The notes: a model not told the origin generated them from the sequence alone. Shown: positions 10,956 through 30,637, numbered from the stretch's first letter. The stretch: 64,000 bases of DNA from Granulicella sp. (GCA_027339965.1 DAHWNL010000034.1:59551-123550), one strand, 5' to 3'. Program-made: numbers and translations.

Positions 10956-12002
10956 CTAAGAGAGCTCTTGCATCAGCCCTGCCAGAACCTCAGGACCGGG
11001 ACGAACCCGAGCCTCGGAAGCCAGCGAAAGCGGCTCGTCAATCAGATTCAGCCGGGTCACAAAGTCCATTCCGTGCGGATTCACATAAAAGACCCCCGTC
11101 AACACCTCGCCTGAATCGTGCGCCTCAGTCAGCATACTGATCGCGCCCGTCTTGCTCGTCGGAGCATAATTTTCATGGATCTTCCGTAGACGCAAATGCG
11201 AGCCGTCATGCAGTTGCACGTCAACAGTGGTATTGGGATCGTAATCTACAGTTATATCCTCGAAGGGCGCGATGAAGCCGGCCTCGTTCACTGCCTCATC
11301 ATGTTCCTTCATGTACCTGTAGCTCTTTGTGGAGCCCTCATGATCGTTGAAGGTGACACACGGCGAGATGATATCCAGCAGGACAGTTCCCTTGTGTGCA
11401 ATGGCCGCCTTCAACATGGTGGAAAGTTGCTTCTTGTCCCCGGAGAACGACCGGCCTACGAAAGTAGCACCTACCTGGATCGCCAGCGCGCAGATATCGA
11501 TCGGCGGCATGTCATTGACCACACCTGTCTTCAGCTTGGACCCAATATCGGCCGTTGCGGAGAACTGTCCCTTGGTGAGCCCGTACACTCCATTGTCTTC
11601 GACAATGTAAATGATGGGCAGATTGCGGCGTAGCAGGTGCATGAACTGCCCGAGCCCAATGGAAACGGTATCCCCGTCCCCACTGATGCCGATGGACCGC
11701 ATGGTCTTGTTGGCCAGCAGAGCTCCGGTCGCAACCGCAGGCATGCGTCCATGCACGGAGTTGAAACTGAAAGACCGAGACATGAAGTACGCCGGCGACT
11801 TGGAGGAACAGCCGATGCCGCTCATCTTCATGACATCTTCCGGCGGAACGCCCATCTCGTAAAAAGCTTCGATCAAACGCTCGGAGATCGCATTATGACC
11901 GCAACCAGCACATAGGGTCGACTTGCCGCCACGATAATCAAGGATCTCAAGGCCGATCTGATTGGTCCGAGCAGGCGTGGATGGAACGGGTGAAGTTGCC
12001 AT
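10956..12002 (-). CDS. korB: 2-oxoacid:ferredoxin oxidoreductase beta subunit
   Basis: CAGCG, GIGCS, HGR, TPP motif GDGD...N..YGLTKGQ, SPCVTFN. Confidence 0.9.
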   Translation of the reverse strand: MATSPVPSTPARTNQIGLEILDYRGGKSTLCAGCGHNAISERLIEAFYEMGVPPEDVMKMSGIGCSSKSPAYFMSRSFSFNSVHGRMPAVATGALLANKTMRSIGISGDGDTVSIGLGQFMHLLRRNLPIIYIVEDNGVYGLTKGQFSATADIGSKLKTGVVNDMPPIDICALAIQVGATFVGRSFSGDKKQLSTMLKAAIAHKGTVLLDIISPCVTFNDHEGSTKSYRYMKEHDEAVNEAGFIAPFEDITVDYDPNTTVDVQLHDGSHLRLRKIHENYAPTSKTGAISMLTEAHDSGEVLTGVFYVNPHGMDFVTRLNLIDEPLSLASEARVRPGPEVLAGLMQELS

Positions 12003-12004
12003 GA

Positions 12005-13858
12005 TTACTTTCTTGCTCCTTCAAATTTGGTGATGGCCTCGCTAATCACCCTCGCCTCGATCGGCAAGCCGGCAAAGTAGGTGATCGAATGCAGCTTGAC
12101 CGCCTCGGATGCGTCCAGGTCGGTCTTCAAAAGGTTTCGCATCTGACCGTCGCGGTTCTGTTCCACCACAAAGATGGTCTCGTGGCAAGCCACAAAATCA
12201 TTGACCTCCTGGGTAAACGGATAGGCCCGAAGGCGCAGATAGTCGGTGTGGATTCTCGCTTCACGCTGCAACTGGTCCCGGCTCTCCAGCACTGCGGGAT
12301 CGCTGCTCCCAAAGGCGATGATGCCGATCTTCTCCTTGCCCGTCCCCTTCAGTACGGGCTTGGGAACCAGAGTCTTTGCGGTTTCAAACTTGCGCGCCAG
12401 GCGCTGCATGTTCTGCGCATAGTCTTCCGGCCTCTCCGAGTACTGAGCCCTCTCATTCTTGCCCGTGCCGCGCGTGAAGTAGGCTGCCTTCGGGTGGTTA
12501 GTCCCAGGTAGCGTCCGGTAAGGAATTCCGTCGCCATCCACGTCCTGGTAGCGAGCGAACTCGCCCAGGTCTTCCAGTCGATTCGCGTTCAGGACCTTTC
12601 CTCGATTGATCGGCTTCTCTGGATACTCGAACGGTTCGGACATCCAGTTGTTCATCCCTAAATCCAGATCGCTCAGGATGAAGACGGGAGTCTGCAGCAT
12701 CTCGGCGACGTCAAATGCCTCCACGGCTAGCTCGAAGCACTCCTTCACCGAGCCTGGAAGCAGCATCACGTGCTTGGTATCCCCGTGCGATAGCCCGGAG
12801 ACAAAGGCGATATCGCCCTGTTGCGTGCGGGTAGGCAGACCTGTGGAAGGGCCCGTTCGCTGCACATCCAGGATGACGCCTGGAATCTCGGCAAAGTAGC
12901 CCAGCCCGGCGAACTCCGCCATCAGCGAGATGCCGGGTCCGGAGGTCGCTGTCATGGCGCGAGCTCCACCCCATCCCGCACCCAGCACCATCCCCATCGC
13001 GGCCAGTTCATCCTCGGCCTGCACAATGGCGAAGGTGGCCTTGCCGTCCTTCTCTACCCGATACTTCTTCATGTACTTGATCAGATCTTCCACTACGCTG
13101 GTTGAGGGTGTGATCGGATACCAGCTCACCACCGTCACTCCGGCGAACATGGTGCCCATGGCGCAGGCCGCATTTCCATCCACGATGATCTTTCCCTGGG
13201 TCGCGTTCATCGGCTCAACCGTAAGCCCGTCCTGCTTGGTCAGCGCGCTGGAGGCATAATCAAAACCTAGCTGAACCGCTTTCCAGTTCAGGTCCGCCAC
13301 CGCAGCCTTGCGGGCAAACTGCTGTCGCACAATGCCTTCCAAGCCCTTCATGTCGATCGCCAAGAGCTGCGCCGCCACCCCCACATAGACCATGTTCTTG
13401 ATCAGCTTGCGAACCTTCATCTCCGCACCGGTAGCTGCCGCCAGTTGATCAAAAGGAACCGGGTAGTAAACCACATCGGCGCGGCGATCTCCGATCGAGA
13501 AGCTCTCGTCATAGATGGCGGCCCCACCCGCCGGCAGTTTGCGAATATCGTCCAGCACGGTCTCCGGATTCAACGCAATCAACAGATCCACATGCCCCTT
13601 GCGCGCCACCCAGCCATCACGGTTGGCGCGGATCAGATACCATGTGGGCAGTCCCGCAATGTTGGATGGAAACAGGTTCTTGCCGGAGACCGGAACCCCC
13701 ATGCGAAAGATGCTTCGGAGCAGGATGTTGTTGGCCGATTGCGATCCGGATCCGTTTACCGTTGCGACCTGGATGGTGAAATCGTTCACCAATTTTTTGG
13801 GGTGAACAATCGAGTCCGCTGCGGACAGACTCTCAGCTTCGAGATTGGTGGTAGCCAT
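12005..13858 (-). CDS. korA: 2-oxoacid:ferredoxin oxidoreductase alpha subunit (gamma-alpha fusion)
   Basis: N-terminal gamma domain, YPITP, EDE, TATSGPG, QR.GPSTG.PT; AAGGA RBS before ATG 13858. Confidence 0.9.
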   Translation of the reverse strand: MATTNLEAESLSAADSIVHPKKLVNDFTIQVATVNGSGSQSANNILLRSIFRMGVPVSGKNLFPSNIAGLPTWYLIRANRDGWVARKGHVDLLIALNPETVLDDIRKLPAGGAAIYDESFSIGDRRADVVYYPVPFDQLAAATGAEMKVRKLIKNMVYVGVAAQLLAIDMKGLEGIVRQQFARKAAVADLNWKAVQLGFDYASSALTKQDGLTVEPMNATQGKIIVDGNAACAMGTMFAGVTVVSWYPITPSTSVVEDLIKYMKKYRVEKDGKATFAIVQAEDELAAMGMVLGAGWGGARAMTATSGPGISLMAEFAGLGYFAEIPGVILDVQRTGPSTGLPTRTQQGDIAFVSGLSHGDTKHVMLLPGSVKECFELAVEAFDVAEMLQTPVFILSDLDLGMNNWMSEPFEYPEKPINRGKVLNANRLEDLGEFARYQDVDGDGIPYRTLPGTNHPKAAYFTRGTGKNERAQYSERPEDYAQNMQRLARKFETAKTLVPKPVLKGTGKEKIGIIAFGSSDPAVLESRDQLQREARIHTDYLRLRAYPFTQEVNDFVACHETIFVVEQNRDGQMRNLLKTDLDASEAVKLHSITYFAGLPIEARVISEAITKFEGARK

Positions 13859-14206: not shown

Positions 14207-17200
14207 TCAACCTCTAGGACCTGCGGGAGTATCAGGCGCAGAGGTTGAAACACCCTTCTTCGAGGCCAAGTTGCCGGGCAAGGAACTGTCCCCAGAGGCG
14301 TATTCCTGATATAACCGCCATTTCCTCCGCACGTCTTCCTCTGCCTCTTCCAGAAGGCGCTTGGCAGCCTCAGGATGGCTGCGCGAGAGCATGGTATAGC
14401 GCGCTTCCTTGTAGCTATACTCCTTCAAAGCGATGGAGGGCGGTTTGGAATCCAGTTGAAATGGATTTTTGCCCTGCGCCTGCAGCATCGGGTTGTAACG
14501 CATCAAAGGCCAGTATCCAGACAGCACAGCGTTCTTTTGTTGCTCCATTCCGAGGCCGAGATCATATCCGTGGGCGATGCATTGGCTGTAGGCGATGATG
14601 AGAGCCGGCCCGTCATAGGCTTCCGCCTCCTGGAACGCTTTTACCGTTTGGATATCGCTGCCGCCCATGGCCACCCGGGCCACGTAAACCGAACCATAAC
14701 TGAGCGCCTCCATCGCAAGATCTTTCTTGCCCGTCAGCTTGCCTCCTGAAGCAAACTTGGCCACGGCCCCGCGCGGCGTCGACTTTGACATCTGTCCGCC
14801 GGTATTGGAGTACGTCTCTGTATCCAGCACCAGAATCTTCACATTTTTGCCCGAGCCCAGCACATGGTCCACGCCCCCAAAGCCGATATCGTAGGCCCAA
14901 CCATCGCCACCCACCAGCCATACGCTCTTGCGCACCAACGAATCAGCCAGACTGTGCAACAAGCGTGCCTCCGGCCTCTCCACTCCGTCTAGCCGGCCGC
15001 GGATTCGTTTCACTCGCTCTCGTTGCCGATCAATCCCGACTTCCGTCGTCTGATCGGCACTGAGCGCCGCTTCTACCAACTCCTCCCCAACAATCGCCGC
15101 TTGTTGCCGCAACAGAGCCTCAGCCTGCTCCTTTTGTTGATCCAGCCCCAGGCGAATTCCCAAACCAAACTCCGCGTTGTCCTCGAAGAGCGAGTTGGCC
15201 CAGGTCGGTCCGCGGCCCTCATCGTTCACCGTGTACGGCGTGGTGGGCATGCTGCCGCCATAGATCGAAGAGCAGCCTGTGGCGTTGGCGATGTATAATC
15301 GGTCGCCGAACAACTGCGTGAGCAGCTTGATGTAGGGTGTCTCTCCGCAGCCTGCGCAAGCGCCGGAGAACTCAAACAGCGGCTCCAGCAGTTGAACATC
15401 CTTCACCTGATTGTGCGACAGAGTTGCTCGTTTCACCGGCGGCAGAGCCGCAAAGAACTTCCAGTTCTCCGCCTCCGGGGCGCGCAAAGGCTCTTGCGGT
15501 TCCATCTGCAGCGCCTTGCGCCGGGGACGGGCCGCCGGCTCCGTCCTGCTGACTGCCGGGCAGGTCTCCATGCACAGCCTGCACCCGGTACAGTCTTCGG
15601 GCGCAACTTGCAGGGCGTAGAGCTTCTTTTCCATATCGCGCCACTTCGGCTTGGCAGTCTTAAAGCTTTGCGGCGCCTCTGCCAGCAGAGTGCTGTCGAA
15701 GACCTTGGCGCGGATCGCCGCATGCGGGCACACCAGAACGCACTTCCCGCACTGAATGCAAAGCTCCTGATCCCATACCGGGATCATCTGAGCGATGTTC
15801 CGCTTTTCCCAATGCGTGGTTCCCGTGGGGAAGGTTCCATCCGGAGGCAACGCGCTTACCGGCAGCAGGTCGCCCCGGCCCGCAGCCATCTCCCCCAGAA
15901 CGTTCGTAACAAACTCCGGCGCCGACGGCGAAAAGATCGGCAGCAGATCAACCTGAGATGTGGCCTTCTCGGGCACTTTCACGCGATGGAGATGGGCCAG
16001 CGCGGCATCCACCGCGGCGTAGTTTCTCTGCACCACATCCCCGCGCCTTCCGTAAGTCTGCTGAATGGCCTTTTTGATCTGCTCAACCGCCTCGGCCAGC
16101 GGCAAAACACCGCTGATGGCGAAGAAACAGACTTGCATGACAGTGTTGATGCGGCTTCCCATCCCCGTCTCGCGGGCCACGCCATAGGCGTCGATTACAT
16201 AGAACTCTAGCTTCCGTTCCACAATGGTCTCCTGCACTTTGCGCGGCAGATGTTCCCACACCTCCTCCGGTCCGTAGGGAGCATTCAATAAAAACACGGC
16301 GCCTGGAGCCGCGGCGGAGAGAATGTCCATCCGCTCCAGAAAGGAGAAGCTGTGGCAGGCCACAAAATTGGCTTGCGTGATCAGATACGTGGACAGGATC
16401 GGCGCCGGCCCAAAGCGAAGATGAGAGGTGGTCATCGAGCCCGACTTCTTGGAGTCATAAACGAAGTAGCCCTGGACGTAGTTCGGCGTCTCGTGCCCGA
16501 TGATCTTGATCGAGTTCTTATTGGCGCCCACCGTCCCATCCGATCCCAGACCGTAGAACAGGGCGCGGAAGGTGCGAGGATCCTCCGTGCAGAACTTCGG
16601 ATCATACTCCAGACTGGTATGCGTAACGTCGTCTGTGATGCCGATCGTGAAGTGATTCTTCGGCTGCGGGTCCCATAACTCTTCGAAGATGCCCTTCACC
16701 ATCGCCGGGGTGAACTCCTTGGAAGACAGACCGTAACGTCCGCCGATCACCTTGGGAAGCCTGGCAAACCGCGGGCTCGCATCCTGCATGCTCTCGCCGA
16801 TCGCCGTCAACACATCCTGGTACAACGGTTCACCAATAGCGCCCGGTTCCTTGGTGCGATCCAGCACCGCAATCGCTCGCACCGACTTGGGAAGAGATCT
16901 CAGGAAGGTCTCTGTGGCGAACGGACGGTACAGCCGAACTTTTAACAGGCCGAGCTTCTCTCCACGCGCATTCAAGTGGAGAATTGTCTCTTCGACCGCT
17001 CCGGCTCCTGAACCCATGATCACGATCACCCTATCCGCCTCGGGATCGCCCACATAATCAAACAGATGATAAGAGCGGCCGGTCAGCCGGGCGAAGTCAT
17101 TCATCACGCGCTGCACGATCGAAGGACAAGCCAGATAATATGGATTCGAGGCTTCGCGCGCCTGGAAAAAGACATCGGGATTCTGTGCTGTTCCGCGCAA

Positions 17201-17872
17201 AATCGGGCGGTCCGCACTCAAAGCCCGCTTTCGATGAGCCTCGATCAGCTTTTCGTCCATCAGCGCGCGGATGGTCTCGTCGGAGATGCTGGCCACCTTG
17301 TTAATCTCATGCGAGGTTCGAAAGCCATCGAAGAAGTGCAGAAACGGGACCCTCGCCTCCAGCGTCGATAGATGCGCAACCAGCGCAAGGTCTCCGGCCT
17401 CTTGCACCGAATCAGAGGCTAACATTGCATAGCCAGTCGCACGACAGGCCATCACGTCCGAATGGTCCCCAAAGATCGAAAGGGCATGCGTGGCCACCGA
17501 CCGCGCGGTGACGTGAACAACGTTCGACGTCAGCTCCCCGGCGATCTTGAACAGATTGGGGATCATCAACAACAATCCCTGAGAGGCGGTGAAGGTGGTG
17601 CTCAAAGAGCCTGCTTGCAGGGCTCCGTGCATCGCGCCTGCGGCACCCCCTTCGCTTTGCATCTCCGCGATCAGCGGAACCGCTCCCCAAAGGTTCCGGC
17701 GGCCTTGTTCACTCCACTGGTCGGCCCACTCGGCCATCGTGGACGATGGAGTGATTGGGTAAATGGAGATTACCTCCGCCAGCCGGTAGGCCACATCCGC
17801 CACAGCCTGGTTGCCATCTACGATCTCGAACTGTTCTGAATTCAACTCAACACCCCGCTGCTTCCCCACCAT
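14207..17872 (-). CDS. nifJ: Pyruvate:ferredoxin/flavodoxin oxidoreductase (single-chain)
   Basis: 1221 aa; YPITPS, QSEGGAAG, two CxxCxxCxxxCP motifs, GACAGCGE, ATGCS, GGDGWAYDIG. Confidence 0.95.
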   Translation of the reverse strand: MVGKQRGVELNSEQFEIVDGNQAVADVAYRLAEVISIYPITPSSTMAEWADQWSEQGRRNLWGAVPLIAEMQSEGGAAGAMHGALQAGSLSTTFTASQGLLLMIPNLFKIAGELTSNVVHVTARSVATHALSIFGDHSDVMACRATGYAMLASDSVQEAGDLALVAHLSTLEARVPFLHFFDGFRTSHEINKVASISDETIRALMDEKLIEAHRKRALSADRPILRGTAQNPDVFFQAREASNPYYLACPSIVQRVMNDFARLTGRSYHLFDYVGDPEADRVIVIMGSGAGAVEETILHLNARGEKLGLLKVRLYRPFATETFLRSLPKSVRAIAVLDRTKEPGAIGEPLYQDVLTAIGESMQDASPRFARLPKVIGGRYGLSSKEFTPAMVKGIFEELWDPQPKNHFTIGITDDVTHTSLEYDPKFCTEDPRTFRALFYGLGSDGTVGANKNSIKIIGHETPNYVQGYFVYDSKKSGSMTTSHLRFGPAPILSTYLITQANFVACHSFSFLERMDILSAAAPGAVFLLNAPYGPEEVWEHLPRKVQETIVERKLEFYVIDAYGVARETGMGSRINTVMQVCFFAISGVLPLAEAVEQIKKAIQQTYGRRGDVVQRNYAAVDAALAHLHRVKVPEKATSQVDLLPIFSPSAPEFVTNVLGEMAAGRGDLLPVSALPPDGTFPTGTTHWEKRNIAQMIPVWDQELCIQCGKCVLVCPHAAIRAKVFDSTLLAEAPQSFKTAKPKWRDMEKKLYALQVAPEDCTGCRLCMETCPAVSRTEPAARPRRKALQMEPQEPLRAPEAENWKFFAALPPVKRATLSHNQVKDVQLLEPLFEFSGACAGCGETPYIKLLTQLFGDRLYIANATGCSSIYGGSMPTTPYTVNDEGRGPTWANSLFEDNAEFGLGIRLGLDQQKEQAEALLRQQAAIVGEELVEAALSADQTTEVGIDRQRERVKRIRGRLDGVERPEARLLHSLADSLVRKSVWLVGGDGWAYDIGFGGVDHVLGSGKNVKILVLDTETYSNTGGQMSKSTPRGAVAKFASGGKLTGKKDLAMEALSYGSVYVARVAMGGSDIQTVKAFQEAEAYDGPALIIAYSQCIAHGYDLGLGMEQQKNAVLSGYWPLMRYNPMLQAQGKNPFQLDSKPPSIALKEYSYKEARYTMLSRSHPEAAKRLLEEAEEDVRRKWRLYQEYASGDSSLPGNLASKKGVSTSAPDTPAGPRG

Positions 17873-17898
17873 TCTCGGCGGCTGGGAGTGGTCCGAAT

Positions 17899-17914
17899 TG
17901 TGACCAATGTCACA
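17899..17914. promoter_or_regulatory. Palindromic TGTGA-N6-TCACA operator (CRP/FNR-family or Rex-like) in the divergent nifJ/nuoA spacer
   Basis: TGTGACCAATGTCACA; extended -10-like TGaTAAGCT at 17932-17940 on plus strand. Confidence 0.7.
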
Positions 17915-17951
17915 TGGATTTGATTCGTTTCTGATAAGCTAAAGGCGAGCT

Positions 17952-18323
17952 ATGGTGAATCACACGTATCTCCCGGTTCTTGTGCTCTTGATTGCAGGTG
18001 CGGCTTTCGCCATCGGTCCCCTGGCTCTTGCATGGCTATGGGCCAGGAAGTTTTCTCCACAAAAGACAGGCCCGACCAAAAACGCGATCTACGAATGTGG
18101 CTTGGAGTCCAACGGAGATGCCTGGATCAAGTTCAAGCCAGGCTATTACCTCTACGCCATTCTCTTTCTCATCTTTGACGTGGAAGCTGTCTTCTTGCTG
18201 CCGTTCGCCGTCGCCTTCGGGGGCTTCACTGTAGCGGAGTCCGTCTCCATGCTTGTATTTCTGCTTCTCCTGGTCGAAGGACTCGTCTGGGCCTGGCAGA
18301 AGAACGTCCTTTCCTGGATCTGA
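17952..18323 (+). CDS. nuoA: Complex I-like subunit A
   Basis: 3 TM helices, YECG loop, FLIFDVE. Confidence 0.92.
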   Translation: MVNHTYLPVLVLLIAGAAFAIGPLALAWLWARKFSPQKTGPTKNAIYECGLESNGDAWIKFKPGYYLYAILFLIFDVEAVFLLPFAVAFGGFTVAESVSMLVFLLLLVEGLVWAWQKNVLSWI

Positions 18324-18463: not shown

Positions 18464-19105
18464 ATGGACGAACAGCTAAAAAGTGAGTTGAGACGCCAGG
18501 GCGTAGTCGCCACTTCTCTCCAGGAGCTTTACAATTGGGGCCGCAAAAGCTCCATCTGGCCGCTCAACTTCGGCCTCGCCTGCTGCGCGATTGAGATGAT
18601 CGCCACTACCATGGCGCGTTACGATCTGGCTCGCTTCGGAGCTGAGGTCTTTCGTCCCTCGCCGCGTCAGGCCGATCTGATGATCGTCGCTGGAACCGTC
18701 ACCAAGAAGATGGCCCCCCAGGTGGTGCGTCTTTACAACCAGATGGCCGAGCCCAAGTACGTCATATCCATGGGCGCCTGCGCGATCTCCGGCGGGCCCT
18801 TCAAGCAGGGCTACAACGTGCTCAAGGGCATCGACCGCTATATCCCCGTGGATGTCTTTATCCCCGGCTGCCCTCCCCGTCCGGAGGCGCTGCTGGATGC
18901 GTTTTTGATGCTGCAACGCAAGATCGACGAGCAACAGCTCACCGGCCCCGAACGCCCCCGTCATCTTCAGGCGGAGCAACCAAGCGAGTTCATCGTGCCG
19001 CAATACAGCGAACACGACCTGATCCCCACGCGGAACGACACGATCTGGCATGCTCCGCTGGTCAACATCTCAAACGCAGGCGCCAATGAATCTGGAAGAG
19101 ATTAA
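18464..19105 (+). CDS. nuoB: Complex I-like subunit B (cluster N2)
   Basis: [28 protein letters not shown]. Confidence 0.95.
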
Positions 19106-19739
19106 AATCCAAATCGAAGCCAATGTTCCAGGCTGCTTCCTGGAGATCCTCCCCAACGCCAGTCCTTCCGGGCAGCACTCCCTGATTGTGGACACAGAGC
19201 ATGCTCTGACCGTGGCCAGCTTTCTGCGAGATGGCGCCAACCCACGGTTTGATTACTGCTCCAACGTCACCGGCGTCGATTGGCCCCTCAAAGAGACCTC
19301 CGCCAAGCAAAAGACAAAAAAGATCGTTGACGGCGTGGAGAAGGAGGTGGAAGAAGTGGTCAAAACCTCCACTGGCAACTATCTAGAGGTGGTCTACCAT
19401 CTGTTTTCTCTGGAAGATCGCCAAGGCCCTGTCGTACTTCGCATGCGCACCGAGGATCGCGCAGAACGGGTTCACCTTCCTTCCCTGACTCCGGTATGGC
19501 GCAGTGCGGAGCTTCAGGAGCGTGAGGTCTATGATCTGTTCGGCATCGTCTTTGACGGCCACCCCGATCTGCGCCGGCTGCTGATGTGGGAGGAGTTCAC
19601 GGACCACCCCATGCGCAAAGACTACGTCGACCCGGATGACTACGAGTACGAGCCAACCCCCCACGACGAGATTCTCAAGCGAACCCAGGCCCACTATGCG
19701 GCACAAGAACCACGGTCCGAAGCAGGGGAAGCGAGATGA
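19086..19739 (+). CDS. nuoC: Complex I-like subunit C
   Basis: [33 protein letters not shown] 19086 overlaps the end of nuoB. Confidence 0.92.
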
Positions 19740-20996: not shown

Positions 20997-21695
20997 GTGC
21001 TAGGGGACGGAATCATCAAAGGCCTTGCCGAGACGGCTCGCAACTTCTTTGGAAGCTACGTGGACAAAGAGCGTCTGACCACGGTTCAATATCCGGAGGA
21101 GCGGCTTCCGCAAATTGAGGGAACGCGCGACTTCCCTTTTCTGGTCTATGACGGCGACGACTGGGAGAAGGGTCTGCGCTGCGTCTCCTGCCACATCTGC
21201 GAGAAAGAATGTCCACCCAAGTGCATCTTCATTGAAAAGAGCAAGGACAAAAAGCCTGACGCTGTCGGCAAGCTCCAGTTCTACCCCGTAAGATTCGATA
21301 TCGATATCTCCGTCTGCATGAGCTGCCAGATCTGCGTCGAAGTCTGCCCCTTCGATGCCATCAAGATGAACGTGGAGTTCGAATTGAGCTCAGATGATCG
21401 CTTCGGCGGCTTACTCCTCTCCAAGGACAAACTGGCCCGCTCCAACGAGTACTATCACGAGATTCATCCCACAGAAGCCGCAGCCGTTGATGCCGCCTTG
21501 GCGGAGGATCGAGAAAAGGAAAAAGAGAAGCAGAAACAGGCTGCTTTGGCAGCCGCTGCCGCCGCTGCTGCTAAAGCCGCGGCCGCCTCGCCCTCAGCCT
21601 CGGCAGCACCTGCTCCGACTCCGGCCTCCGGCGCAGGACCCGTCCCGGACGCCGGCAATGGCGGCAACGCATCCAGCAAAGAGGAGACGAAATGA
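20997..21695 (+). CDS. nuoI: Complex I-like subunit I (2x[4Fe-4S]) with low-complexity C-terminal tail
   Basis: TVQYPEE, CVSCHICEKECP, CMSCQICVEVCP; GTG 20997 after GGAGG. Confidence 0.9.
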   Translation: MLGDGIIKGLAETARNFFGSYVDKERLTTVQYPEERLPQIEGTRDFPFLVYDGDDWEKGLRCVSCHICEKECPPKCIFIEKSKDKKPDAVGKLQFYPVRFDIDISVCMSCQICVEVCPFDAIKMNVEFELSSDDRFGGLLLSKDKLARSNEYYHEIHPTEAAAVDAALAEDREKEKEKQKQAALAAAAAAAAKAAAASPSASAAPAPTPASGAGPVPDAGNGGNASSKEETK

Positions 21696-21749: not shown

Positions 21750-22925
21750 ATGCCTGAGATGGTCGATCAGATCTTCGTTCTCCTGAAACACTGGATCATG
21801 GGGTATGTGCCCGGCAGCCTGCAGCCGCTCTGCTCCGCTATCCTGTCCGTGCTCCCAATCCTGGTCGTGTTTCCGCTCTTGTTTGCCATCACCACCGTAC
21901 TGGAGCGCAAAGGCCTGGGCAGGATGCAGAACCGATACGGTCCCAACCGCGCCGGCCCGTGGGGCATCTTGCAGCCGGCGGCTGACGGCATCAAGTCCCT
22001 CACCAAGGAAGACATCGTTCCTCGCTCCGCGGATCAACTCGTCCACTTGTCAGCGCCTGTTCTCATCGTGATCGCCTCCCTCCTGGTGTACTCGGTAGTG
22101 CCGGTAGGCCGGAATATGGTGGTGGCCGATCTGAATGCGGGCGTCCTCTTCTTCTTCGCCATCGGAAGCATGGTGGAGCTGGCGGTCTTCATGGCGGGCT
22201 GGTCGAGCCGCAGCAAGTACTCTTTGCTGGGAGCCATGCGCGCCATCGCTCAGATGATCAGCTACGAGATGCCCATGGTTCTCTCCGGAGTGGTGGCGAT
22301 TATGGCGGCGGGCTCGCTCTCCACCGTCACCATCGTCAACATGCAGGCCGGCTACACCGGCATCTGGCCACACTGGTATCTTTTCACTCCCTGGGGCATC
22401 ACCGGCTACATCCTCTTCATGATTGCGGCCACAGCCGAGTCCAACCGCTGTCCCTTCGATCTGCCCGAGGGCGAGTCGGAGATTATCGCCGGCTACTTCA
22501 TCGAGTACTCAGGCTTCAAGTTTGCCCTCTTTTTTGTCGCGGAGTATCTGGGCATGATGGCCAGCAGCGCCATGGCCATCACTCTCTTCCTGGGTGGTTG
22601 GGCCGCGCCCTTCTCCTTCCTCACCTGGATTCCCTCCTGGTTCTGGTTCTTCGCCAAACTGATCTTCATGCTCATGATCTTCATCTGGATTCGCGGCACG
22701 CTACCACGCCTGCGTATGGATCAATTGATGAACTTCGGATGGAAGTTCATGCTGCCGCTCTCCCTGATTAACATCGTGTGCGCCGGGCTCTGGCATTATC
22801 TTCCCGCCGGCTTTGCGCGCTGGTCCGTCATCAGCCTTCTGCTCCTACTCTCTTGTTTCCTGTTGAGCCGGAGCCTCAGGCGCAACAAATGGTTTCAGGA
22901 ACGCACCTATCGCTTCGCCAGTTAG
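21750..22925 (+). CDS. nuoH: Complex I-like subunit H
   Basis: ERK...MQNR.GPNR, LQP.ADGIK...KE, AQMISYE, PFDLPE.ESE. Confidence 0.93.
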   Translation: MPEMVDQIFVLLKHWIMGYVPGSLQPLCSAILSVLPILVVFPLLFAITTVLERKGLGRMQNRYGPNRAGPWGILQPAADGIKSLTKEDIVPRSADQLVHLSAPVLIVIASLLVYSVVPVGRNMVVADLNAGVLFFFAIGSMVELAVFMAGWSSRSKYSLLGAMRAIAQMISYEMPMVLSGVVAIMAAGSLSTVTIVNMQAGYTGIWPHWYLFTPWGITGYILFMIAATAESNRCPFDLPEGESEIIAGYFIEYSGFKFALFFVAEYLGMMASSAMAITLFLGGWAAPFSFLTWIPSWFWFFAKLIFMLMIFIWIRGTLPRLRMDQLMNFGWKFMLPLSLINIVCAGLWHYLPAGFARWSVISLLLLLSCFLLSRSLRRNKWFQERTYRFAS

Positions 22926-23024: not shown

Positions 23025-23528
23025 ATGACTCTCTCCTTTGTGCTGCTCGCCGCCATCGCGATCCTCGGCGCCGCCGCGGCGATGAATCTCAAAAGTGCCG
23101 TCCACTGCGTTCTCGCGCTCACCCTGGGCATGGTCGGCTTGGCTGCTCTCTATCTCCAGTTAGGAGCTCAATTTGTCGGATTGACGCAACTGCTTGTCTA
23201 CGTCGGCGCAGTCGCGATTCTGGCAGTCTTCGCCATTATGCTGACCCGCAGCAGAACTGGGGAGAGTGTCGCGCATGGCCCGGCCTCCTCCAGGATCTCG
23301 GGAGCGCTGACCGCGCTGCTGGTCTTCGCTGTGCTGGCCTGGGCGATCTTCACCGGAGTCTCCCCGCAGCCGCTCTCCGGCGCACAGCCGGAGGCCTCCG
23401 TTCGCGAGGTTGGCGTGGCCCTGATGCAGCGCTTTGTCCTTCCACTGGAGATCATCGGCGTGCTCCTGACCGCGGCACTGATCGGAGCCGGCGTCCTCGC
23501 CATCGAAGAAAAAGGAGGAGATCGATGA
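23025..23528 (+). CDS. nuoJ: Complex I-like subunit J
   Basis: 5 TM helices, Q.LVYVGAV..L..FAIML. Confidence 0.9.
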   Translation: MTLSFVLLAAIAILGAAAAMNLKSAVHCVLALTLGMVGLAALYLQLGAQFVGLTQLLVYVGAVAILAVFAIMLTRSRTGESVAHGPASSRISGALTALLVFAVLAWAIFTGVSPQPLSGAQPEASVREVGVALMQRFVLPLEIIGVLLTAALIGAGVLAIEEKGGDR

Positions 23529-23836
23529 GCCCGCTCTCCGGCTACCTGCTCCTCTCCGCCCTTCTGTTCTCCATTGGCCTCTCCGGCGCACTCACCCGGC
23601 GCAATGCCATCCTGGTTCTCATTGGCATCGAACTCATGCTCAACGCTGCCAACCTGAACTTCATCGCCTTCTGGCGCTACAGTCCTCACCCGGAGATGCT
23701 CACCGGCGTGATGTTCGTCATCTTCTCCATCGGCATCGCCGCGGCAGAAGCCGCCGTTGGCCTCAGTATCATCGTTGCCGTCTACCGGCACTTCCGGACG
23801 ACGGATCTCGACAAGATCAACTTCCTGAAGGGGTAG
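23525..23836 (+). CDS. nuoK: Complex I-like subunit K
   Basis: RRN, IELMLNAANL, AAAEAAVGL. Confidence 0.93.
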   Translation: MSPLSGYLLLSALLFSIGLSGALTRRNAILVLIGIELMLNAANLNFIAFWRYSPHPEMLTGVMFVIFSIGIAAAEAAVGLSIIVAVYRHFRTTDLDKINFLKG

Positions 23837-23947: not shown

Positions 23948-26065
23948 ATGAACTGGATCGTGCAAAATCTCTGGCTGATTCCTGCGTTACCCCTGCTTGC
24001 GGCGGGGATCATTGCCCTTACCCCGCAGAAGGGCCACGTACGCGGAGCTGCTCTCGCCATCGGTTCGATGGGCATCTCCTTGCTTCTCTCGATCTGGGCA
24101 TTTGCGCACGTGCTATCCCTGCGCGGCAGCGGCCAACTCACCACTCAGGTCTTCAACTTCCGCTGGTTCCAGTTTGGCAACGACTGGCTGTCGCTCGGCT
24201 GGGTCTTGAATCCCCTCACCGCGGTCATGCTGGTCATGGTCACCTTCGTGGGCCTGCTGATCTTCATCTTCAGTGTCGGCTATATGGCGCACGATGAGAA
24301 CTTTACTCGGTTCTTCTGCTTCCTTGCCCTCTTTGCCGGGGCCATGCTCGGCGTCGTTATCGCCAACAGCCTGCTACTGCTGTTCATGTGCTGGGAGATC
24401 GTTGGCTTGACATCCTATCTCCTGATCGGCTTCTGGTATCACAAGCCCAGCGCCGCCGCCGCCTGCAAGAAGGCATTCATCACCACCCGCATCGGCGATC
24501 TGCCCTTCTTCCTCGGCATGGTCTGGCTCTACTCCCAAACCGGAACTCTGCTCTTCTACAACAATGGCGGCGGATGCATTGAGCCAAGCGCCATCACCCA
24601 CATGCTCTCCCAAGCCACGCCCCTGGGAATCTGCGCGGCCACCGCCATCGCCCTGCTCGTCTTCTGCGGAGCTGTGGGCAAGAGCGGACAGGTTCCGCTG
24701 CACGTCTGGTTGCCCGACGCCATGGAAGGCCCCACGCCCGTCAGCGCGCTGATCCACGCCGCCACTATGGTCGCCGCCGGCGTCTTTCTGGTCGCTCGCG
24801 TCTACCCTCTCATGAGTGCGCAGCACTCCATCAACGGCATGCTGACTACCTCAGCCGCCCTGCAGGTGGTTACCTGGGTTGGCGCCATCACGGCTTTCTT
24901 TGCCGCCACCATCGCCGTCGCGCAGTGGGACATCAAGCGGATTCTGGCCTACTCAACCGTCTCCCAGCTCGGCTATATGATGATGGGCCTGGGAGTTGGC
25001 GGTGTCGCGGTTGGAATCTTTCACCTCATCACCCACGCCTTCTTTAAATCCCTGCTCTTCCTCGGCGCCGGCTCCGTCATTCACGGCTGCTCGGACGAAC
25101 AGGATATTCGCCGCATGGGCGGCTTAGCCAAATACATGCCGGTGACCTTTGCCGCTTATGCGGTCGGCATGCTCGCCCTATGCGGCTTTCCGCTTTTCTC
25201 CGGCTTCTGGAGCAAGGATGAGATCCTGCATGCGGCCAGCACCTGGAACGTCTCCCACGTGCCGTATCTTCTCGGCGCAGCAGGAGCTCTACTGACGGCC
25301 TTCTATATGTCCCGCCAGGTGATCTACGTCTTCTTCGGAACCCTTCGCGCGGCGCCGATCGCCCATCAGGGCGCTCACGGAGCCAGTCTCGCTCCAGCCC
25401 ATGCGGATGCTCACCACCATGCTTCGGGAGTCCCGCATGAAAGCCCTGCTGTGATGACAGTCCCTCTCGTGCTGTTGTCCATCTTCGCCGGGCTGCTCGG
25501 CTTTGTCGGAACAGCCGCTTGGCCCTGGTTCCAGTCCTTTGTGGAGGACGCTCCGCTCAAGCTGGACTTTGGCGCTTTTACCCAAGGCGGAATCCTCCCC
25601 GTCATGCTGACCTCCTCGGTGATCGTCCTGCTCGGCCTTGGTTTAGGTTGGTGGTTTTACGGTCGCCGGCCCTTGGAAGGAACCGACGCTCCCGACAACC
25701 TTGGGAGGCTTGCGCCCTCCGCCTTCAGCTTCCTCGGTCACGCTGCCTATGTGGATGCGCTCTATGGAGCCACCTTCATTCGTCTCAATACGCTCTTCTC
25801 CAAGATCTCCGATTGGTTTGACCGTTGGATCTGGAACGGCGCCGTCAAGACGGTGACCCAAACGGTCTTTGGATTTGCTCACTTGGACAACTTCATCGAT
25901 ACACACGTGGTGAACTCAGGCTTTGACGAAGGGTGCGAAGGCGTCTCCGGCGGCGGAAGGCTCCTAGCATTGCTCCAGGCAGGCCGTATTCAGGGATATC
26001 TCAAGATCATCGCAGGCGCGTTGGTTGTGTTCACCGTCCTGCTGCTATGGAAGGCACGCATATGA
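23948..26065 (+). CDS. nuoL: Complex I-like subunit L (705 aa, extended lateral helix)
   Basis: WE.VGL.SY.LIGFW, GKSGQ.PLH.WLPDAMEGPTPVSALIHAATMV.AG, YSTVSQLG, HAFFK. Confidence 0.95.
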   Translation: MNWIVQNLWLIPALPLLAAGIIALTPQKGHVRGAALAIGSMGISLLLSIWAFAHVLSLRGSGQLTTQVFNFRWFQFGNDWLSLGWVLNPLTAVMLVMVTFVGLLIFIFSVGYMAHDENFTRFFCFLALFAGAMLGVVIANSLLLLFMCWEIVGLTSYLLIGFWYHKPSAAAACKKAFITTRIGDLPFFLGMVWLYSQTGTLLFYNNGGGCIEPSAITHMLSQATPLGICAATAIALLVFCGAVGKSGQVPLHVWLPDAMEGPTPVSALIHAATMVAAGVFLVARVYPLMSAQHSINGMLTTSAALQVVTWVGAITAFFAATIAVAQWDIKRILAYSTVSQLGYMMMGLGVGGVAVGIFHLITHAFFKSLLFLGAGSVIHGCSDEQDIRRMGGLAKYMPVTFAAYAVGMLALCGFPLFSGFWSKDEILHAASTWNVSHVPYLLGAAGALLTAFYMSRQVIYVFFGTLRAAPIAHQGAHGASLAPAHADAHHHASGVPHESPAVMTVPLVLLSIFAGLLGFVGTAAWPWFQSFVEDAPLKLDFGAFTQGGILPVMLTSSVIVLLGLGLGWWFYGRRPLEGTDAPDNLGRLAPSAFSFLGHAAYVDALYGATFIRLNTLFSKISDWFDRWIWNGAVKTVTQTVFGFAHLDNFIDTHVVNSGFDEGCEGVSGGGRLLALLQAGRIQGYLKIIAGALVVFTVLLLWKARI

Positions 26066-27632: not shown

Positions 27633-29141
27633 ATGCTTGCTTGGACGATCTACCTATCCTTTCTTGGAGCACTGGCGCTTCTGCTGTTGCCCAGCCGCAG
27701 CGCCACCTTGGCGAGGTTGCTGGCATTGCTGGTCAGCGTCACCACCTTTTCGCTTGCTCTCATGGGATTCCTCCAGCATCGCTCCGGCGAGATGTTCACC
27801 GTCGCCGGCGTTCCCTGGATTCAATCCCTGGGCATCCAATATTCCCTTAAAGCCGACGGTATCAGCTTGACTCTGCTTCTACTTACCGGTGTTATCGGCA
27901 TTTGCGGCGTTCTTCTGTCCTGGGATATTAACGTTCGCGTCAAGGAGTTCTTCGCCTTTTACCTGGTGCTCATCGGCGCCGTCTACGGCGTCTTCCTCAG
28001 CTACGACCTCTTCCTCCTCTTTGTCTTCTACGAAATTGTCGTCATCCCCAAGTACTTCCTGATCGCCATCTGGGGCTCAACGCGGCGGGAGTACGGAGCC
28101 ATGAAGCTGGTGATTTACTCCTTCATCGGCAGCGCCATGGTCCTGGTTGGTCTTGTCGCCGCTTATGTCTGCTCTGGCTCCAGAAGCTTGTCTCTGGACT
28201 ACTTGGCCGGTTACCACTTCTCGCCACACTTCCAGATGTGGGCGTTCCCTCTGGTCTTCACCGGCTTTGCCGTTCTTGCCGGTATGTGGCCCTTTCACAC
28301 CTGGGCCCCCACCGGACACGTCGCTGCGCCCACTGCTGCTTCCATGCTCCTGGCCGGCGTCGTCATGAAGCTCGGGGCCTATGGATGCCTTCGAGTCGCC
28401 ATGACGCTCTTCCCTCTCGGATTGGGTCCATGGGGCTTTCACGTCCTCGGGTTTGGATCCTGGCGTGACGTCTTTGCCGTCCTGGCCGTGATCGGCATCA
28501 TCTACGGCGCGTTGGTCGCCCTGGTGCAGAAGGACTTCAAATTCGTCATCGGTTACTCCAGCATCAGCCACATGGGCTTTATTCTGCTGGGCTTGATGAC
28601 GTTGAATCAGATTGGCCTCTCCGGTGCCGTCGTGCAGATGGTCTCCCACGGTATCCTCGCAGGATTGCTCTTCGGCGTGGTCGGCCGCATGGTCTACGCT
28701 CGCACCCATACCCGGGAGCTGTCGGCCCTGGGCCCCATGCACCTCAGCAAGGTCATTCCCTTTGCCGCAGCTACTTTCGTCATCGCCGGCATGGCCAGCA
28801 TGGGGCTGCCCGGATTCAGCGGTTTTGCTGCCGAACTCATGATTCTCATCGGCGTCTGGCGCTCTTATCCAACCCTGATTCTCTTCGTGGGCGTCGGTCT
28901 GGTCGCCGGCGTTGCCTATATCTGGCGCGCCATGCAACAGGCATTCTTTGCCGGAGGGCCCCCGGCCACCGCTCCTCCCGATCATCCGCTTCCACCCATC
29001 TCCCTCCCGGAACGCGTGGCCGCTGTCATCCTCATCGCATCAAGCGTGATCGTCGGCATCTTCCCCCAGATCTTTCTCAGTGTCATCCATCCAGCCCTGA
29101 ATTCGCCGATGTTTGACGGCCTGCGCAAGGGGGGCTGGTAA
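27633..29141 (+). CDS. nuoM: Complex I-like subunit M, copy 2 (divergent)
   Basis: FYE...IP, PFHTWAP.GH..AP, KLGAYG, YSSISHMG, SHG, PGFSGF.AE. Confidence 0.9.
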   Translation: MLAWTIYLSFLGALALLLLPSRSATLARLLALLVSVTTFSLALMGFLQHRSGEMFTVAGVPWIQSLGIQYSLKADGISLTLLLLTGVIGICGVLLSWDINVRVKEFFAFYLVLIGAVYGVFLSYDLFLLFVFYEIVVIPKYFLIAIWGSTRREYGAMKLVIYSFIGSAMVLVGLVAAYVCSGSRSLSLDYLAGYHFSPHFQMWAFPLVFTGFAVLAGMWPFHTWAPTGHVAAPTAASMLLAGVVMKLGAYGCLRVAMTLFPLGLGPWGFHVLGFGSWRDVFAVLAVIGIIYGALVALVQKDFKFVIGYSSISHMGFILLGLMTLNQIGLSGAVVQMVSHGILAGLLFGVVGRMVYARTHTRELSALGPMHLSKVIPFAAATFVIAGMASMGLPGFSGFAAELMILIGVWRSYPTLILFVGVGLVAGVAYIWRAMQQAFFAGGPPATAPPDHPLPPISLPERVAAVILIASSVIVGIFPQIFLSVIHPALNSPMFDGLRKGGW

Positions 29142-30637
29142 TGAACATCATCGACTTTGGACAACTTCTTCGCCTTCTCTGGCCTGAGATCACCATCATC
29201 CTCGCCGCTCTGCTCGCCCTATCGGTCGATCTGGTCGCGCTCCGGCACTCTCACCTCCGCCTTCGCTTCCTGACTGCCAGCATCATCGCATCCGTCGGAT
29301 GCCTTCTTGCGATCGACGAGCTTCTCCATGCCTCAACCCAAGGAGCGCTTCTCGATAAGATCCTCGTCACTAGTCCGCTGACACAAATGGTCCAGATCGC
29401 CTTGCTGGGCATCGCCATCCTGACCCTCTTTTTGGCAGTCGACGCCGATTTCACCGAACATGTCGGAGAATTCGTCCTTCTCATTCTTCTAGCCACTACA
29501 GGAATGATGTTCCTGGTGTCTGCCCAAGATCTCCTCGTCCTCTTCCTCTCGTTGGAGTTGCTCAGCCTGTCAGCCTATGCTCTTTCCGGTTTTGACAAAC
29601 TCCGCCCCCGCTCCTCAGAGGCTGCGTTGAAGTACTTCCTCTTCGGCGGCATGTCCGCCGCGTTCCTCCTGTTCGGTTTCAGCCTGCTTTACGGCCTGGC
29701 CGACTCCACCAACTTCGTGGACATAGCCTACGCGGTTCAAGGACATCCCTTCAGCCCCATCCTGATGCTGGCCATCGTCACCACCGTCATCGGCTTCGGT
29801 TTCAAACTCGCTGCCGCTCCCTTCCACTTCTGGGCGCCGGATGTTTACCAGGCCGCGCCCATCCCCAGCGCAGCCTTTATCGCCTCCGGTTCCAAGGTTG
29901 CCGGCTTCTTTATCTTCTTCCAACTTCTGGTTCTCGGGTTTGCCGGTGCGGAAGGCGCAGCATCCCCGCTTCACTTTCAGAGCGGCTGGGTGCCGGTTCT
30001 GGTGGCCGTCTCCGTCGTCTCCATGATTCTGGGTAATCTGATCGCAATCACCCAGACGAGCCTCCGCCGCCTGCTCGCCTACTCCGCCGTAGCCCATGCC
30101 GGCTACATGCTGCTCGCGTACGTGGCCCATTCGGAGCAGAGCTTGGCAGCGCTTCTCTATTACGTTGTGACTTATGCTCTGGCGACGCTCGGGATCTTTG
30201 CAATCCTGGCGGTCACCGAGAAGCATCTGGGCAACGATCATATCGCTGACCTGGCCGGCCTTAGCCGCCGCGCACCCTTTCTTTCAGCCTGTCTCTTCGT
30301 CTTAATTCTGTCTCTGGCCGGTATTCCACCGCTCTCTGGCTTCTTCGCCAAGTTCTTCCTGTTTGTCTCCCTTCTCAACACGAATCCAGGATCGAAGTTA
30401 CTGCTTTGGCTCATCATCCTGGCCATCGGCATGAGCGCGGTCTCGCTTTACTACTACCTGCGAGTCCTGAAGAGCGCCTTCGTCGCCGATGCGCCGCCTG
30501 AGGCCGCTCCAATCCAATCCACCATGCTCATGCGCCTGCTCGTAGGGGTTCTGGCGGGAGGAGTAATCGTTCTGGGATGCGCGCCCGAACTGATTCTTCA
30601 TCAGATCCTGAAGGTCATCCAGGCCTCCGGCCTTTAA
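29141..30637 (+). CDS. nuoN: Complex I-like subunit N
   Basis: SSEAALKYF, FKL...PFHFWAPDVY, RLLAYS..AHAGY, SLAGIPP..GF.AKF. Confidence 0.93.
   Translation: MNIIDFGQLLRLLWPEITIILAALLALSVDLVALRHSHLRLRFLTASIIASVGCLLAIDELLHASTQGALLDKILVTSPLTQMVQIALLGIAILTLFLAVDADFTEHVGEFVLLILLATTGMMFLVSAQDLLVLFLSLELLSLSAYALSGFDKLRPRSSEAALKYFLFGGMSAAFLLFGFSLLYGLADSTNFVDIAYAVQGHPFSPILMLAIVTTVIGFGFKLAAAPFHFWAPDVYQAAPIPSAAFIASGSKVAGFFIFFQLLVLGFAGAEGAASPLHFQSGWVPVLVAVSVVSMILGNLIAITQTSLRRLLAYSAVAHAGYMLLAYVAHSEQSLAALLYYVVTYALATLGIFAILAVTEKHLGNDHIADLAGLSRRAPFLSACLFVLILSLAGIPPLSGFFAKFFLFVSLLNTNPGSKLLLWLIILAIGMSAVSLYYYLRVLKSAFVADAPPEAAPIQSTMLMRLLVGVLAGGVIVLGCAPELILHQILKVIQASGL

What the first reader, a model, noticed from the sequence alone, without database searches (positions are those of the whole stretch)
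10956..30637. Candidate ferredoxin-to-quinone energy module: PFOR + KOR divergent from an NuoEFG-less, two-NuoM complex I
Seen: korB-korA-nifJ on the minus strand and nuoA-B-C-D-I-H-J-K-L-M-M-N on the plus strand share a 79-bp spacer; no nuoE/F/G occurs in the window. Established: PFOR and KOR exchange electrons with ferredoxin/flavodoxin; complex I homologues lacking the NADH module can use ferredoxin (cyanobacterial NDH-1); '2M' complexes with an extra antiporter subunit have been described and proposed to move more protons per electron pair. Inference: this is a co-regulated unit coupling anoxic 2-oxoacid oxidation to high-stoichiometry pumping via ferredoxin, or running in reverse to supply low-potential ferredoxin for PFOR/KOR carboxylation. 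The physical linkage points to an electron donor for this complex type. No ferredoxin gene is visible here, so the carrier is unidentified.
Basis: partly seen in the sequence, partly recalled or inferred. Interest (0 to 1): 0.85.

Follow-up and report, generated by a model that had tools for sequence, protein, structure and literature searches.

The report
Four-pump complex I beside ferredoxin enzymes
A known four-pump variant of respiratory complex I that lacks its NADH-binding part sits back-to-back with genes for ferredoxin-reducing enzymes across a conserved regulatory palindrome, which suggests that it likely takes its electrons from ferredoxin when oxygen is low.

Summary
Observation confirmed: korB-korA-nifJ (minus strand) faces nuoABCDIHJKLMMN (plus), with no nuoEFG. 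The genome is a Granulicella-like acidobacterium that also has a canonical operon with nuoEFG. The complex is the published 2M type, already reported in Acidobacterium capsulatum and found before by this scan on other DNA. Added here: (1) a 2-oxoacid:ferredoxin oxidoreductase gene is nuoA's direct neighbour in 12 of 30 evenly drawn family genomes, from three enzyme lineages, but in 0 of 30 Verrucomicrobiae loci; (2) the spacer holds a perfect TGTGA-N6-TCACA box, kept in 34 of 34 nifJ-linked loci and flanked by -10-like hexamers on both sides; the genome's other boxes precede Fnr-like regulators, haem, cytochrome and TCA genes; (3) no Rubisco, Rnf, hydrogenase or flavodoxin was found, there is no sign of citrate cleavage, and a 7Fe ferredoxin is present. 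Best reading (0.6): a low-oxygen ferredoxin:menaquinone proton pump. Against it: korAB is near-universal in the family, 49 of 50 2M genomes keep nuoF, A. capsulatum data show only the first three genes induced at low oxygen, and the second NuoM lacks the TM7 lysine. The 2018 paper was not readable, so the linkage may already be in print.

The parts
10956..12002 (-). korB, beta (TPP-binding) subunit of a two-subunit 2-oxoacid:ferredoxin oxidoreductase; substrate not determined
   Evidence: CAGC/GIGC/GDGD motifs
12005..13858 (-). korA, alpha(+gamma) subunit; ORF could start as early as 13948
   Evidence: TIGR03710 570 bits over cut-off 483; YPITP motif and ATG 13858
14207..17845 (-). nifJ/PFOR, single-chain pyruvate:ferredoxin oxidoreductase with two own 4Fe-4S motifs; longest ORF starts 17872, TTG 17845 is the inferred start
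   Evidence: TIGR02176; motifs; start inferred
17871..17876 (-). predicted -10 hexamer (GAGAAT) of the nifJ promoter, 23 nt from the box core
   Evidence: alignment; best hexamer at offset 22-23 in 24 of 35 loci (no shuffle control)
17899..17914 (.). perfect TGTGA-N6-TCACA palindrome, predicted Crp/Fnr-family site shared by both promoters
   Evidence: at least 9/10 match in 34 of 34 nifJ-divergent loci against 0.5% background; 11 perfect sites in the genome against 0.7 expected
17935..17940 (+). predicted extended -10 (TG-n-TAAGCT) of the nuoA promoter, 21 nt from the box core
   Evidence: offset 21-24 in 33 of 35 loci, TG in 23 of 35 (no shuffle control)
17952..18323 (+). nuoA
18464..19105 (+). 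nuoB with N2 ligands and a conserved C-terminal extension of about 45 aa
19086..19739 (+). nuoC with a lysine-rich insertion (absent in one relative shown) and a conserved C-terminal extension
19736..20896 (+). nuoD, quinone-site motifs intact
20997..21695 (+). nuoI (placed before nuoH), two 4Fe-4S motifs, lysine-rich inter-cluster loop, Ala/Lys-rich tail
21750..22925 (+). nuoH
23025..23836 (+). nuoJ and nuoK
23948..26065 (+). nuoL, pump residues intact; lateral helix lengthened by a 26-residue repeat (about 25814-25969)
   Evidence: anchor distance 79 (window counted by eye from the tail; 79 in 64 of 77 related rows) against 55 in the genome's canonical NuoL and 50 in E. coli
26062..27630 (+). 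nuoM1: E144, K234, K265, E407 (E. coli numbering) kept, K173 replaced by Q
27633..29141 (+). nuoM2: TM7 lysine replaced by Leu215 (28275-28277), new invariant Lys140 in TM5 (28050-28052) six residues after Glu134; K265 and E407 equivalents kept
   Evidence: 64 of 64 rows; helix-rich model pLDDT 88.8
29141..30637 (+). nuoN
   Evidence: TIGR01770 over cut-off

Best explanation
The locus encodes a 12-subunit, two-NuoM complex I without NADH module that likely works as a ferredoxin:menaquinone oxidoreductase, and it is predicted to be switched on together with PFOR by an Fnr-like activator at a single palindrome between them. Shown: the genes, the lengthened NuoL helix, the conserved box, the repeated neighbourhood to 2-oxoacid:ferredoxin oxidoreductases, and the presence of a 7Fe ferredoxin, menaquinone synthesis and four-cysteine Crp/Fnr proteins in the genome. 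Inferred: at low oxygen the regulator activates both back-to-back promoters; PFOR (and KOR, probably under its own control) oxidises pyruvate and 2-oxoglutarate and reduces the C17 ferredoxin; ferredoxin hands electrons to NuoI, they pass to N2 and menaquinone; the larger drop from ferredoxin pays for a fourth antiporter-like subunit; menaquinol drains to the bd oxidase or to box-preceded cytochrome systems (decaheme DmsE/MtrA type, possibly Fe(III) reduction). The fifth proton is a hypothesis from the 2M literature and is not tested.
For: Linkage: direct neighbour in 12 of 30 evenly drawn family genomes (nifJ 6, window-type korA 4, second korAB lineage 2), plus one with another oxidoreductase cluster 3.4 kb upstream. 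In the genus, 8 of 10 loci with visible upstream DNA have one; the other 2 have icd. Co-oriented and downstream arrangements also occur (L174, L175, L132, L134), and linked loci fall in several branches of the NuoD+NuoH tree. Box. Genes behind other boxes: two Crp/Fnr genes, hemA, hemY, ccm genes, multiheme and decaheme cytochromes, an NrfC/D-like cluster, hcp/ric, citrate synthase with succinate CoA-transferase, sucA. Regulators: three Cys invariant or nearly so (33, 32, 33 of 33 rows), a fourth in 27 of 33, and an RETV/I-type recognition helix; no Rex. Alternative ferredoxin sinks not found: Rnf, NiFe hydrogenase (only a NuoD cross-hit), flavodoxin. Ferredoxin present in 45 of 45 family 2M genomes tested; MqnL at window 57079-58848. 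Arithmetic with textbook potentials (recalled): five protons allow at most 98 mV per proton from NADH, 138-170 mV from ferredoxin. In A. capsulatum the 2M nuoA/nuoB rise 3.2/2.8 log2 and por 0.75 from 10 to 0.1 uM O2 while canonical nuoEFG fall 1.0-2.6 (PMC11636273 Tables S3, S4). A PFOR-ferredoxin-complex I route is proposed for Desulfitobacterium (PMC11238625).
Against: 17 of the 30 family genomes show no oxidoreductase upstream (2 had under 1.5 kb of upstream DNA; downstream DNA was mostly not fetched). 0 of 30 Verrucomicrobiae loci have one within about 1.5 kb upstream or the box; 1 of 20 has one downstream, and the window-type ferredoxin was not found in 5 of 5 Verrucomicrobiota genomes. 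49 of 50 2M genomes have a NuoF. korA is in 232 of 250 family genomes and nifJ in 131 of 250 (19 of 30 with 2M, 112 of 220 without), so these enzymes work without this complex. In A. capsulatum por (ACP_2686) and korAB (ACP_0328/9) are not beside ACP_2565-2576, korAB fall 1.8-2.1 log2, and the 2M genes from nuoD to nuoN fall (nuoM-II -2.6, nuoN -2.7). M2 lacks LysTMH7, described as invariant and essential (PMC7419157). Kin share gene order, so the counts overstate independence.
Confidence: 0.6

Rival explanations
1. The 2M arm borrows NuoEFG from the canonical operon and is an alternative NADH dehydrogenase; the PFOR link reflects shared low-oxygen regulation only.
For: One intact nuoEFG in this genome; NuoF in 49 of 50 2M genomes; this family already splits complex I genes (canonical nuoB and nuoI lie apart).
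Against: NADH to menaquinone supports five protons only below about 98 mV (recalled potentials); nuoEFG fall while 2M nuoAB rise in A. capsulatum; three different ferredoxin-enzyme lineages sit beside nuoA, and the korA-linked loci mostly lack the box, so co-regulation alone does not explain them.
Confidence: 0.15
2. The complex runs backwards, using proton motive force and menaquinol to reduce ferredoxin for biosynthesis or for PFOR/KOR carboxylation, as proposed for Nitrospira.
For: Five protons at 170-180 mV exceed the 692-852 meV span; A. capsulatum expresses the whole operon more evenly at 10 uM O2; reverse use is proposed for Nitrospira 2M (PMC6606698).
Against: No Rubisco; single sucC/sucD and two citrate-synthase homologues, so no sign of citrate cleavage (the ACL domain search had no positive control); citrate synthase and sucA carry the same box.
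Confidence: 0.12
3. Ferredoxin is the donor but the second NuoM is a non-pumping spacer or a regulator of slip, so the stoichiometry is ordinary or lower.
For: TM7 lysine replaced by Leu in 64 of 64 M2 rows; a lengthened NuoL also occurs with one nuoM (L050), so the helix does not prove a working fourth pump.
Against: Glu TM5, Lys TM8, both histidines and Glu TM12 are kept, and a new TM5 lysine is invariant; the only NuoM of two Bacteroidales operons also lacks the TM7 lysine. This rival can hold together with the donor part of the best explanation.
Confidence: 0.25
4. A different module docks directly, for example the stand-alone FdhF-like protein with a NuoG-like N-terminus (C82:18756-21821), making it a formate:menaquinone pump.
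For: The protein passes TIGR01591 and resembles NuoG over about 650 residues; no second nuoE/F lies beside it.
Against: No linkage to the operon among recurring flank genes; no box before it among the 53 sites; the Hyf-like cluster on C17 is a more usual partner (established knowledge).
Confidence: 0.05

Closest known systems
2M complex I (Chadwick, Hemp, Fischer and Orphan 2018, ISME J 12:2668; not held, known here only through PMC6606698, PMC9040806, PMC7117926, PMC7300363, PMC8004040)
   Same: Second NuoM, lengthened NuoL lateral helix, no NuoEF(G); proposed extra proton.
   Different: Keeps nuoH and has no enlarged nuoG (unlike Nitrospira clade 3); the direct link to PFOR/KOR and the Crp/Fnr box are not mentioned in the passages I read.
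Acidobacterium capsulatum 'unusual complex I' ACP_2565-2576 (PMC11636273)
   Same: Same family, same gene order A B C D I H J K L M M-II N by locus tag, no nuoEFG, beside a canonical operon.
   Different: There por and korAB lie elsewhere; the authors list it as an NADH dehydrogenase and the word ferredoxin does not occur in the main text.
11-subunit complex I-like enzymes (Desulfitobacterium hafniense, PMC11238625; Bacteroidales operons)
   Same: No NADH module; PFOR and ferredoxin proposed as electron source; the Bacteroidales NuoM also lacks the TM7 lysine.
   Different: Three antiporter-like subunits, short NuoL helix; no gene linkage to PFOR; no TM5 lysine in the two Bacteroidales NuoM.
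Cyanobacterial NDH-1 (ferredoxin:plastoquinone; 6HUM is the best solved match for NuoL)
   Same: Ferredoxin-fed complex I without NuoEFG (established knowledge).
   Different: Uses extra ferredoxin-binding subunits, none of which is encoded in this operon; three pumps.
Crp/Fnr class II promoters with a TGTGA-N6-TCACA site; one site serving divergent promoters (E. coli malI-malX, recalled, not read; search gave listings only)
   Same: Consensus, spacing to the -10 hexamers, RE-x-x-x-R recognition helix.
   Different: The cognate protein is not identified among 8 Crp/Fnr proteins; cysteine spacing is Cx2C-x8-C, against Cx2C-x5-C recalled for E. coli FNR.

Membership tests
2M complex I | Two nuoM genes in one complex I operon | tested here: met
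2M complex I | About 26-residue extension of the NuoL lateral helix | tested here: met
   79 against 55 and 50 residues between anchors; not diagnostic alone, since L050 has it with one nuoM
2M complex I | Canonical charged residues in all four antiporter-like subunits | tested here: inconclusive
   L and M1 keep them; M2 lacks the TM7 Lys and gains a TM5 Lys; N was assigned by HMM only
2M complex I | Both NuoM subunits in one assembled complex, H+/2e- above 4 | not testable with these tools
   needs purification and pumping assays
Nitrospira clade 3 2M | No nuoH, enlarged nuoG (PMC6606698) | tested here: not met
   nuoH present, no nuoG
Canonical 14-subunit NADH:quinone oxidoreductase | nuoEFG in the operon | tested here: not met
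   no E/F/G hit in any 2M locus
Ferredoxin:quinone oxidoreductase (NDH-1-like) | Ferredoxin binds the hydrophilic arm and reduces quinone | not testable with these tools
   indirect only: linkage, ferredoxin gene, lysine-rich NuoI loop
Fnr-type regulon | Conserved palindrome at class II distance from -10 hexamers | tested here: met
   transcription starts are not mapped
Fnr-type regulon | Regulator with four conserved cysteines that senses O2 and binds this site | tested here: inconclusive
   cysteines and recognition helix present; best NCBIfam scores are below cut-offs; cluster and binding untested
Rex regulon | rex gene in the genome | tested here: not met
   0 matches in a 98.9% complete genome, control rang in 7 of 14
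Reductive TCA cycle | Citrate-cleaving enzyme | tested here: not met
   single sucC and sucD homologue; one search found nothing but had no positive control

The most novel reading that the evidence does not exclude
After Acidobacteriaceae acquired a four-pump complex I shared with Verrucomicrobiae, ferredoxin-reducing enzymes were moved next to it several times, and in one arrangement PFOR and the complex were wired to one bidirectional Fnr-type promoter. The result would be a five-proton ferredoxin:menaquinone pump, with the TM7 lysine's job moved to TM5 in the extra subunit, feeding decaheme cytochromes for Fe(III) respiration in acidic anoxic habitats.
Probability: 0.3. Interest if true: 0.75.

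Novelty: new variant of a known kind. Interest (0 to 1): 0.5.

Why it matters
The electron donor of 2M complexes is described as uncertain (PMC7300363) and their stoichiometry is only hypothesised. Repeated gene linkage to ferredoxin-reducing enzymes and a conserved shared promoter give a concrete donor, carrier and regulator to test, and the nifJ-linked form is in a cultured strain (L066, titled Granulicella sp. L46). It also bears on how abundant soil, peat and acid-drainage acidobacteria conserve energy at low oxygen, and M2 is a natural test of whether the TM7 lysine of antiporter-like subunits can be replaced.

Tried and rejected
Chadwick et al. 2018 could not be read, so whether it already notes the PFOR/KOR linkage or the M2 lysine change is unchecked; paper searches gave no passage I read that describes this linkage. 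RNA: no RNA holder listed; three same-study RNA assemblies gave only short, divergent pieces, which say nothing on expression. Complex prediction of ferredoxin with NuoI+B+D: no answer, score 0.09 against a mark of 0.32; not evidence either way. The sigma-70 scan found no promoter in the spacer and no excess of sites, as expected for activator-dependent promoters without a -35. One hit of the box in the window alone is not significant (1 found, 1.39 expected at one mismatch); the case rests on conservation and the genome-wide excess. Rex rejected. rTCA and Calvin cycle rejected (uninformative). No conserved ferredoxin, flavodoxin or adaptor gene among recurring flank ORFs. The direction of transfer from Verrucomicrobiae is not shown: the acidobacterial rows form one branch (SH-aLRT 96; nested in FastTree), but the AU test does not reject a single Verrucomicrobiae clade (p 0.108, 20 rows). 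The M2 model gave no coordinates, so the Glu134-Lys140 geometry was not measured. Rfam found only a tmRNA in the window.
Full report
Observation. The window holds korB, korA and nifJ on the minus strand and nuoA-B-C-D-I-H-J-K-L-M-M-N on the plus strand at the stated coordinates, 79 bp apart. NifJ passes the PFOR equivalog cut-off; korA passes the oxidoreductase alpha subfamily cut-off; korB matches the beta family below its cut-off. The two NuoM proteins are 32% identical, so they are not a recent duplication. Fe-S and quinone-site motifs of B, D and I are intact.

Organism and genome. The closest M2 relatives are titled Acidobacteriaceae or Granulicella (up to 98%) and Verrucomicrobiota (62-69%). 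The 3.8-Mb genome (98.9% complete) also has a canonical operon with nuoE, F and G on C80, with nuoB and nuoI elsewhere, a second korAB on C70 and a Hyf-like cluster on C17. It has one NuoF-family gene, one small 7Fe-type ferredoxin found by motif on C17, a menaquinone-pathway decarboxylase in the window, sucAB, a bd oxidase and two haem-copper oxidases. Searches found no flavodoxin, Rnf, NiFe hydrogenase, Rubisco or Rex. There is a single sucC/sucD pair, so no sign of citrate cleavage.

Family membership. NuoL has 79 residues between two anchors of the lateral helix, against 55 in the genome's canonical NuoL and 50 in E. coli; 64 of 77 related rows give 79 and 13 were not matched by the pattern (the window was counted by eye). 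This and the second nuoM are the 2M features cited from Chadwick 2018 in PMC6606698 and PMC9040806 (passages). The same operon order is reported for A. capsulatum (PMC11636273; parts 2 and 3 of 6, passages and supplement rows read), and a 12-gene version for Chloroflexus (PMC8004040, passages). The complex is therefore a known kind. M1 keeps E144, K234, K265 and E407; M2 has Leu for K234 and Lys for M150 in 64 of 64 rows (rows include some duplicate loci). PMC7419157 (passages) calls the TM7 lysine invariant and essential. The sole NuoM of two Bacteroidales operons also lacks it, though without the TM5 lysine, so its loss does not show a dead subunit.

Distribution and linkage. The M2 orthologue is in 14 of 24 genus relatives, in 8 of 25 family genomes and 0 of 275 other genomes of the phylum. 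The nuoA orthologue is in 30 of 250 family genomes and 62 of 201 genomes of the Verrucomicrobiota class sampled (9 of 20 fetched showed both M genes within 14 kb). For the 30 family genomes, the gene next to nuoA is nifJ in 6, window-type korA in 4 and the second korAB lineage in 2; one more has another oxidoreductase cluster 3.4 kb upstream; 17 show none. In the genus 8 of 10 readable loci are linked and 2 have icd instead. Co-oriented and downstream versions exist (L174, L175, L132, L134). Different enzyme lineages in different tree branches imply more than one juxtaposition. Against over-reading: 0 of 30 Verrucomicrobiae loci are linked upstream; korA is in 232 of 250 and nifJ in 131 of 250 family genomes (these tallies and that include two unpublished genomes, G047 and G066, as rows only); 49 of 50 2M genomes have a NuoF.

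The spacer. TGTGACCAATGTCACA at 17899-17914 is a perfect Crp-type palindrome. Among 82 non-redundant acidobacterial loci a match of at least 9 of 10 lies within 300 bp of nuoA in 34 of 34 nifJ-divergent loci, 1 of 13 korA-divergent, 6 of 18 without an oxidoreductase neighbour, and 1 of the 17 others; the background is 0.5%. The flanks diverge while -10-like hexamers sit 21-24 nt away on the nuoA side (33 of 35) and 22-23 nt away on the nifJ side (24 of 35), the spacing of class II activation (established knowledge; no shuffle control was run for this). The genome has 11 perfect sites against 0.7 expected, and 0-3 for other spacer lengths. Of 53 sites with at most one mismatch, many lie inside genes; the others precede two Crp/Fnr genes, haem and cytochrome c maturation genes, multiheme and two DmsE-type decaheme cytochromes, an NrfC/D-like cluster, a cytochrome b/Rieske cluster, hcp/ric, citrate synthase with succinate CoA-transferase, and sucA. 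Three of the eight Crp/Fnr proteins carry N-terminal cysteines and an RETV/I recognition helix, conserved in 33 rows. This fits an oxygen-sensing Fnr-like regulon; which protein binds, and whether it activates or represses each target, is not shown.

Expression in a relative. In A. capsulatum, going from 10 to 0.1 uM O2, 2M nuoA, B and C rise 3.2, 2.8 and 1.0 log2, and por rises 0.75; 2M nuoD to nuoN fall (down to -2.7), as do canonical nuoE to nuoN (-0.9 to -2.8) and korAB (-1.8, -2.1). The promoter responds to low oxygen, but the whole enzyme is not shown to be induced, and KOR behaves differently. In that strain por and korAB are not adjacent to the operon.

Mechanism. With recalled potentials (menaquinone -74 mV, NADH -320 mV, ferredoxin -420 to -500 mV), five protons per electron pair are affordable up to 98 mV from NADH and 138-170 mV from ferredoxin. 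Together with the linkage, the box and the missing alternative ferredoxin sinks, this favours ferredoxin:menaquinone oxidoreduction in the oxidative direction at low oxygen (0.6). A proteomic study proposes the same route for the 11-subunit enzyme of Desulfitobacterium (PMC11238625, passages). Rivals are a borrowed NuoEFG (0.15), reverse transport (0.12), a docked FdhF-like protein (0.05), and, compatible with ferredoxin as donor, a non-pumping M2 (0.25). The NuoI inter-cluster loop is net positive in 58 of 61 rows and the ferredoxin is acidic (7 K/R, 17 D/E), which is weak support, since the E. coli loop is also net positive.

Other papers seen: bioRxiv 10.1101/197269 (passages: peat acidobacteria have several nuo operons, one with nuoEFG; supplement closed), PMC7117926, PMC8115632 and PMC7300363 (passages). 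Other titles were seen as search listings only.

Verdict. Real, conserved and mostly of a known kind. The new content is the repeated link to ferredoxin-reducing enzymes and the shared Crp/Fnr box, which make the donor question testable in a cultured strain. Interest 0.5; new variant of a known kind.

Noticed in passing
L050 (G025:C16:19000-38900): NuoEFG-less operon nuoA C D H I J K L M N with one nuoM but a lengthened NuoL tail.
   Followed up: partly
L001:15330-16985 (G000 C80 canonical nuoM): The canonical NuoM has V for H248, E for H348 and a 3-residue gap before K265.
   Followed up: no
L003:4169-11446 (G000 C17): Hyf-like membrane cluster whose large subunit lacks the Ni-binding cysteine motifs, so Ehr-like (name recalled); a possible second ferredoxin-linked complex.
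   Followed up: partly
L194:9165-12926 (G000 C44) and G000 C80:11021-14754: Two near-identical DmsE-family decaheme cytochrome genes, each with a 901-aa partner of no family and a perfect box upstream; the duplicated sdh operon (C25, C44) suggests some strain mixing.
   Followed up: partly
L190:4756-7821 (G000 C82): Stand-alone formate dehydrogenase alpha with a NuoG-like N-terminus and no nuoE/F partner.
   Followed up: partly
L187:1827-7853 (G000 C70): GltD-like flavo-Fe-S gene in one run with Rieske, split cytochrome b and multi-cytochrome c genes, behind a 9/10 box.
   Followed up: no
G073, G077, G178, G200, G247: nifJ lies within about 15 kb of a second, longer NuoF-like gene, possibly a Hox-type cluster (coordinates).
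   Followed up: no
L046, L048, L099, L114, L120: An isocitrate dehydrogenase-like gene (named from its sequence, not by a family search) is the divergent neighbour of nuoA.
   Followed up: partly
window 52516-52869 (+): tmRNA.
   Followed up: no
window 2671-4332 (-), 39681-41942 (-), 57079-58848 (-): Bacillithiol synthase bshC, a fused E1 alpha-beta 2-oxoacid dehydrogenase, and a futalosine-pathway menaquinone decarboxylase.
   Followed up: no
window 31209-36678 (+): RND efflux adaptor, permease and outer-membrane factor directly after nuoN; not among the recurring neighbours of the operon.
   Followed up: partly
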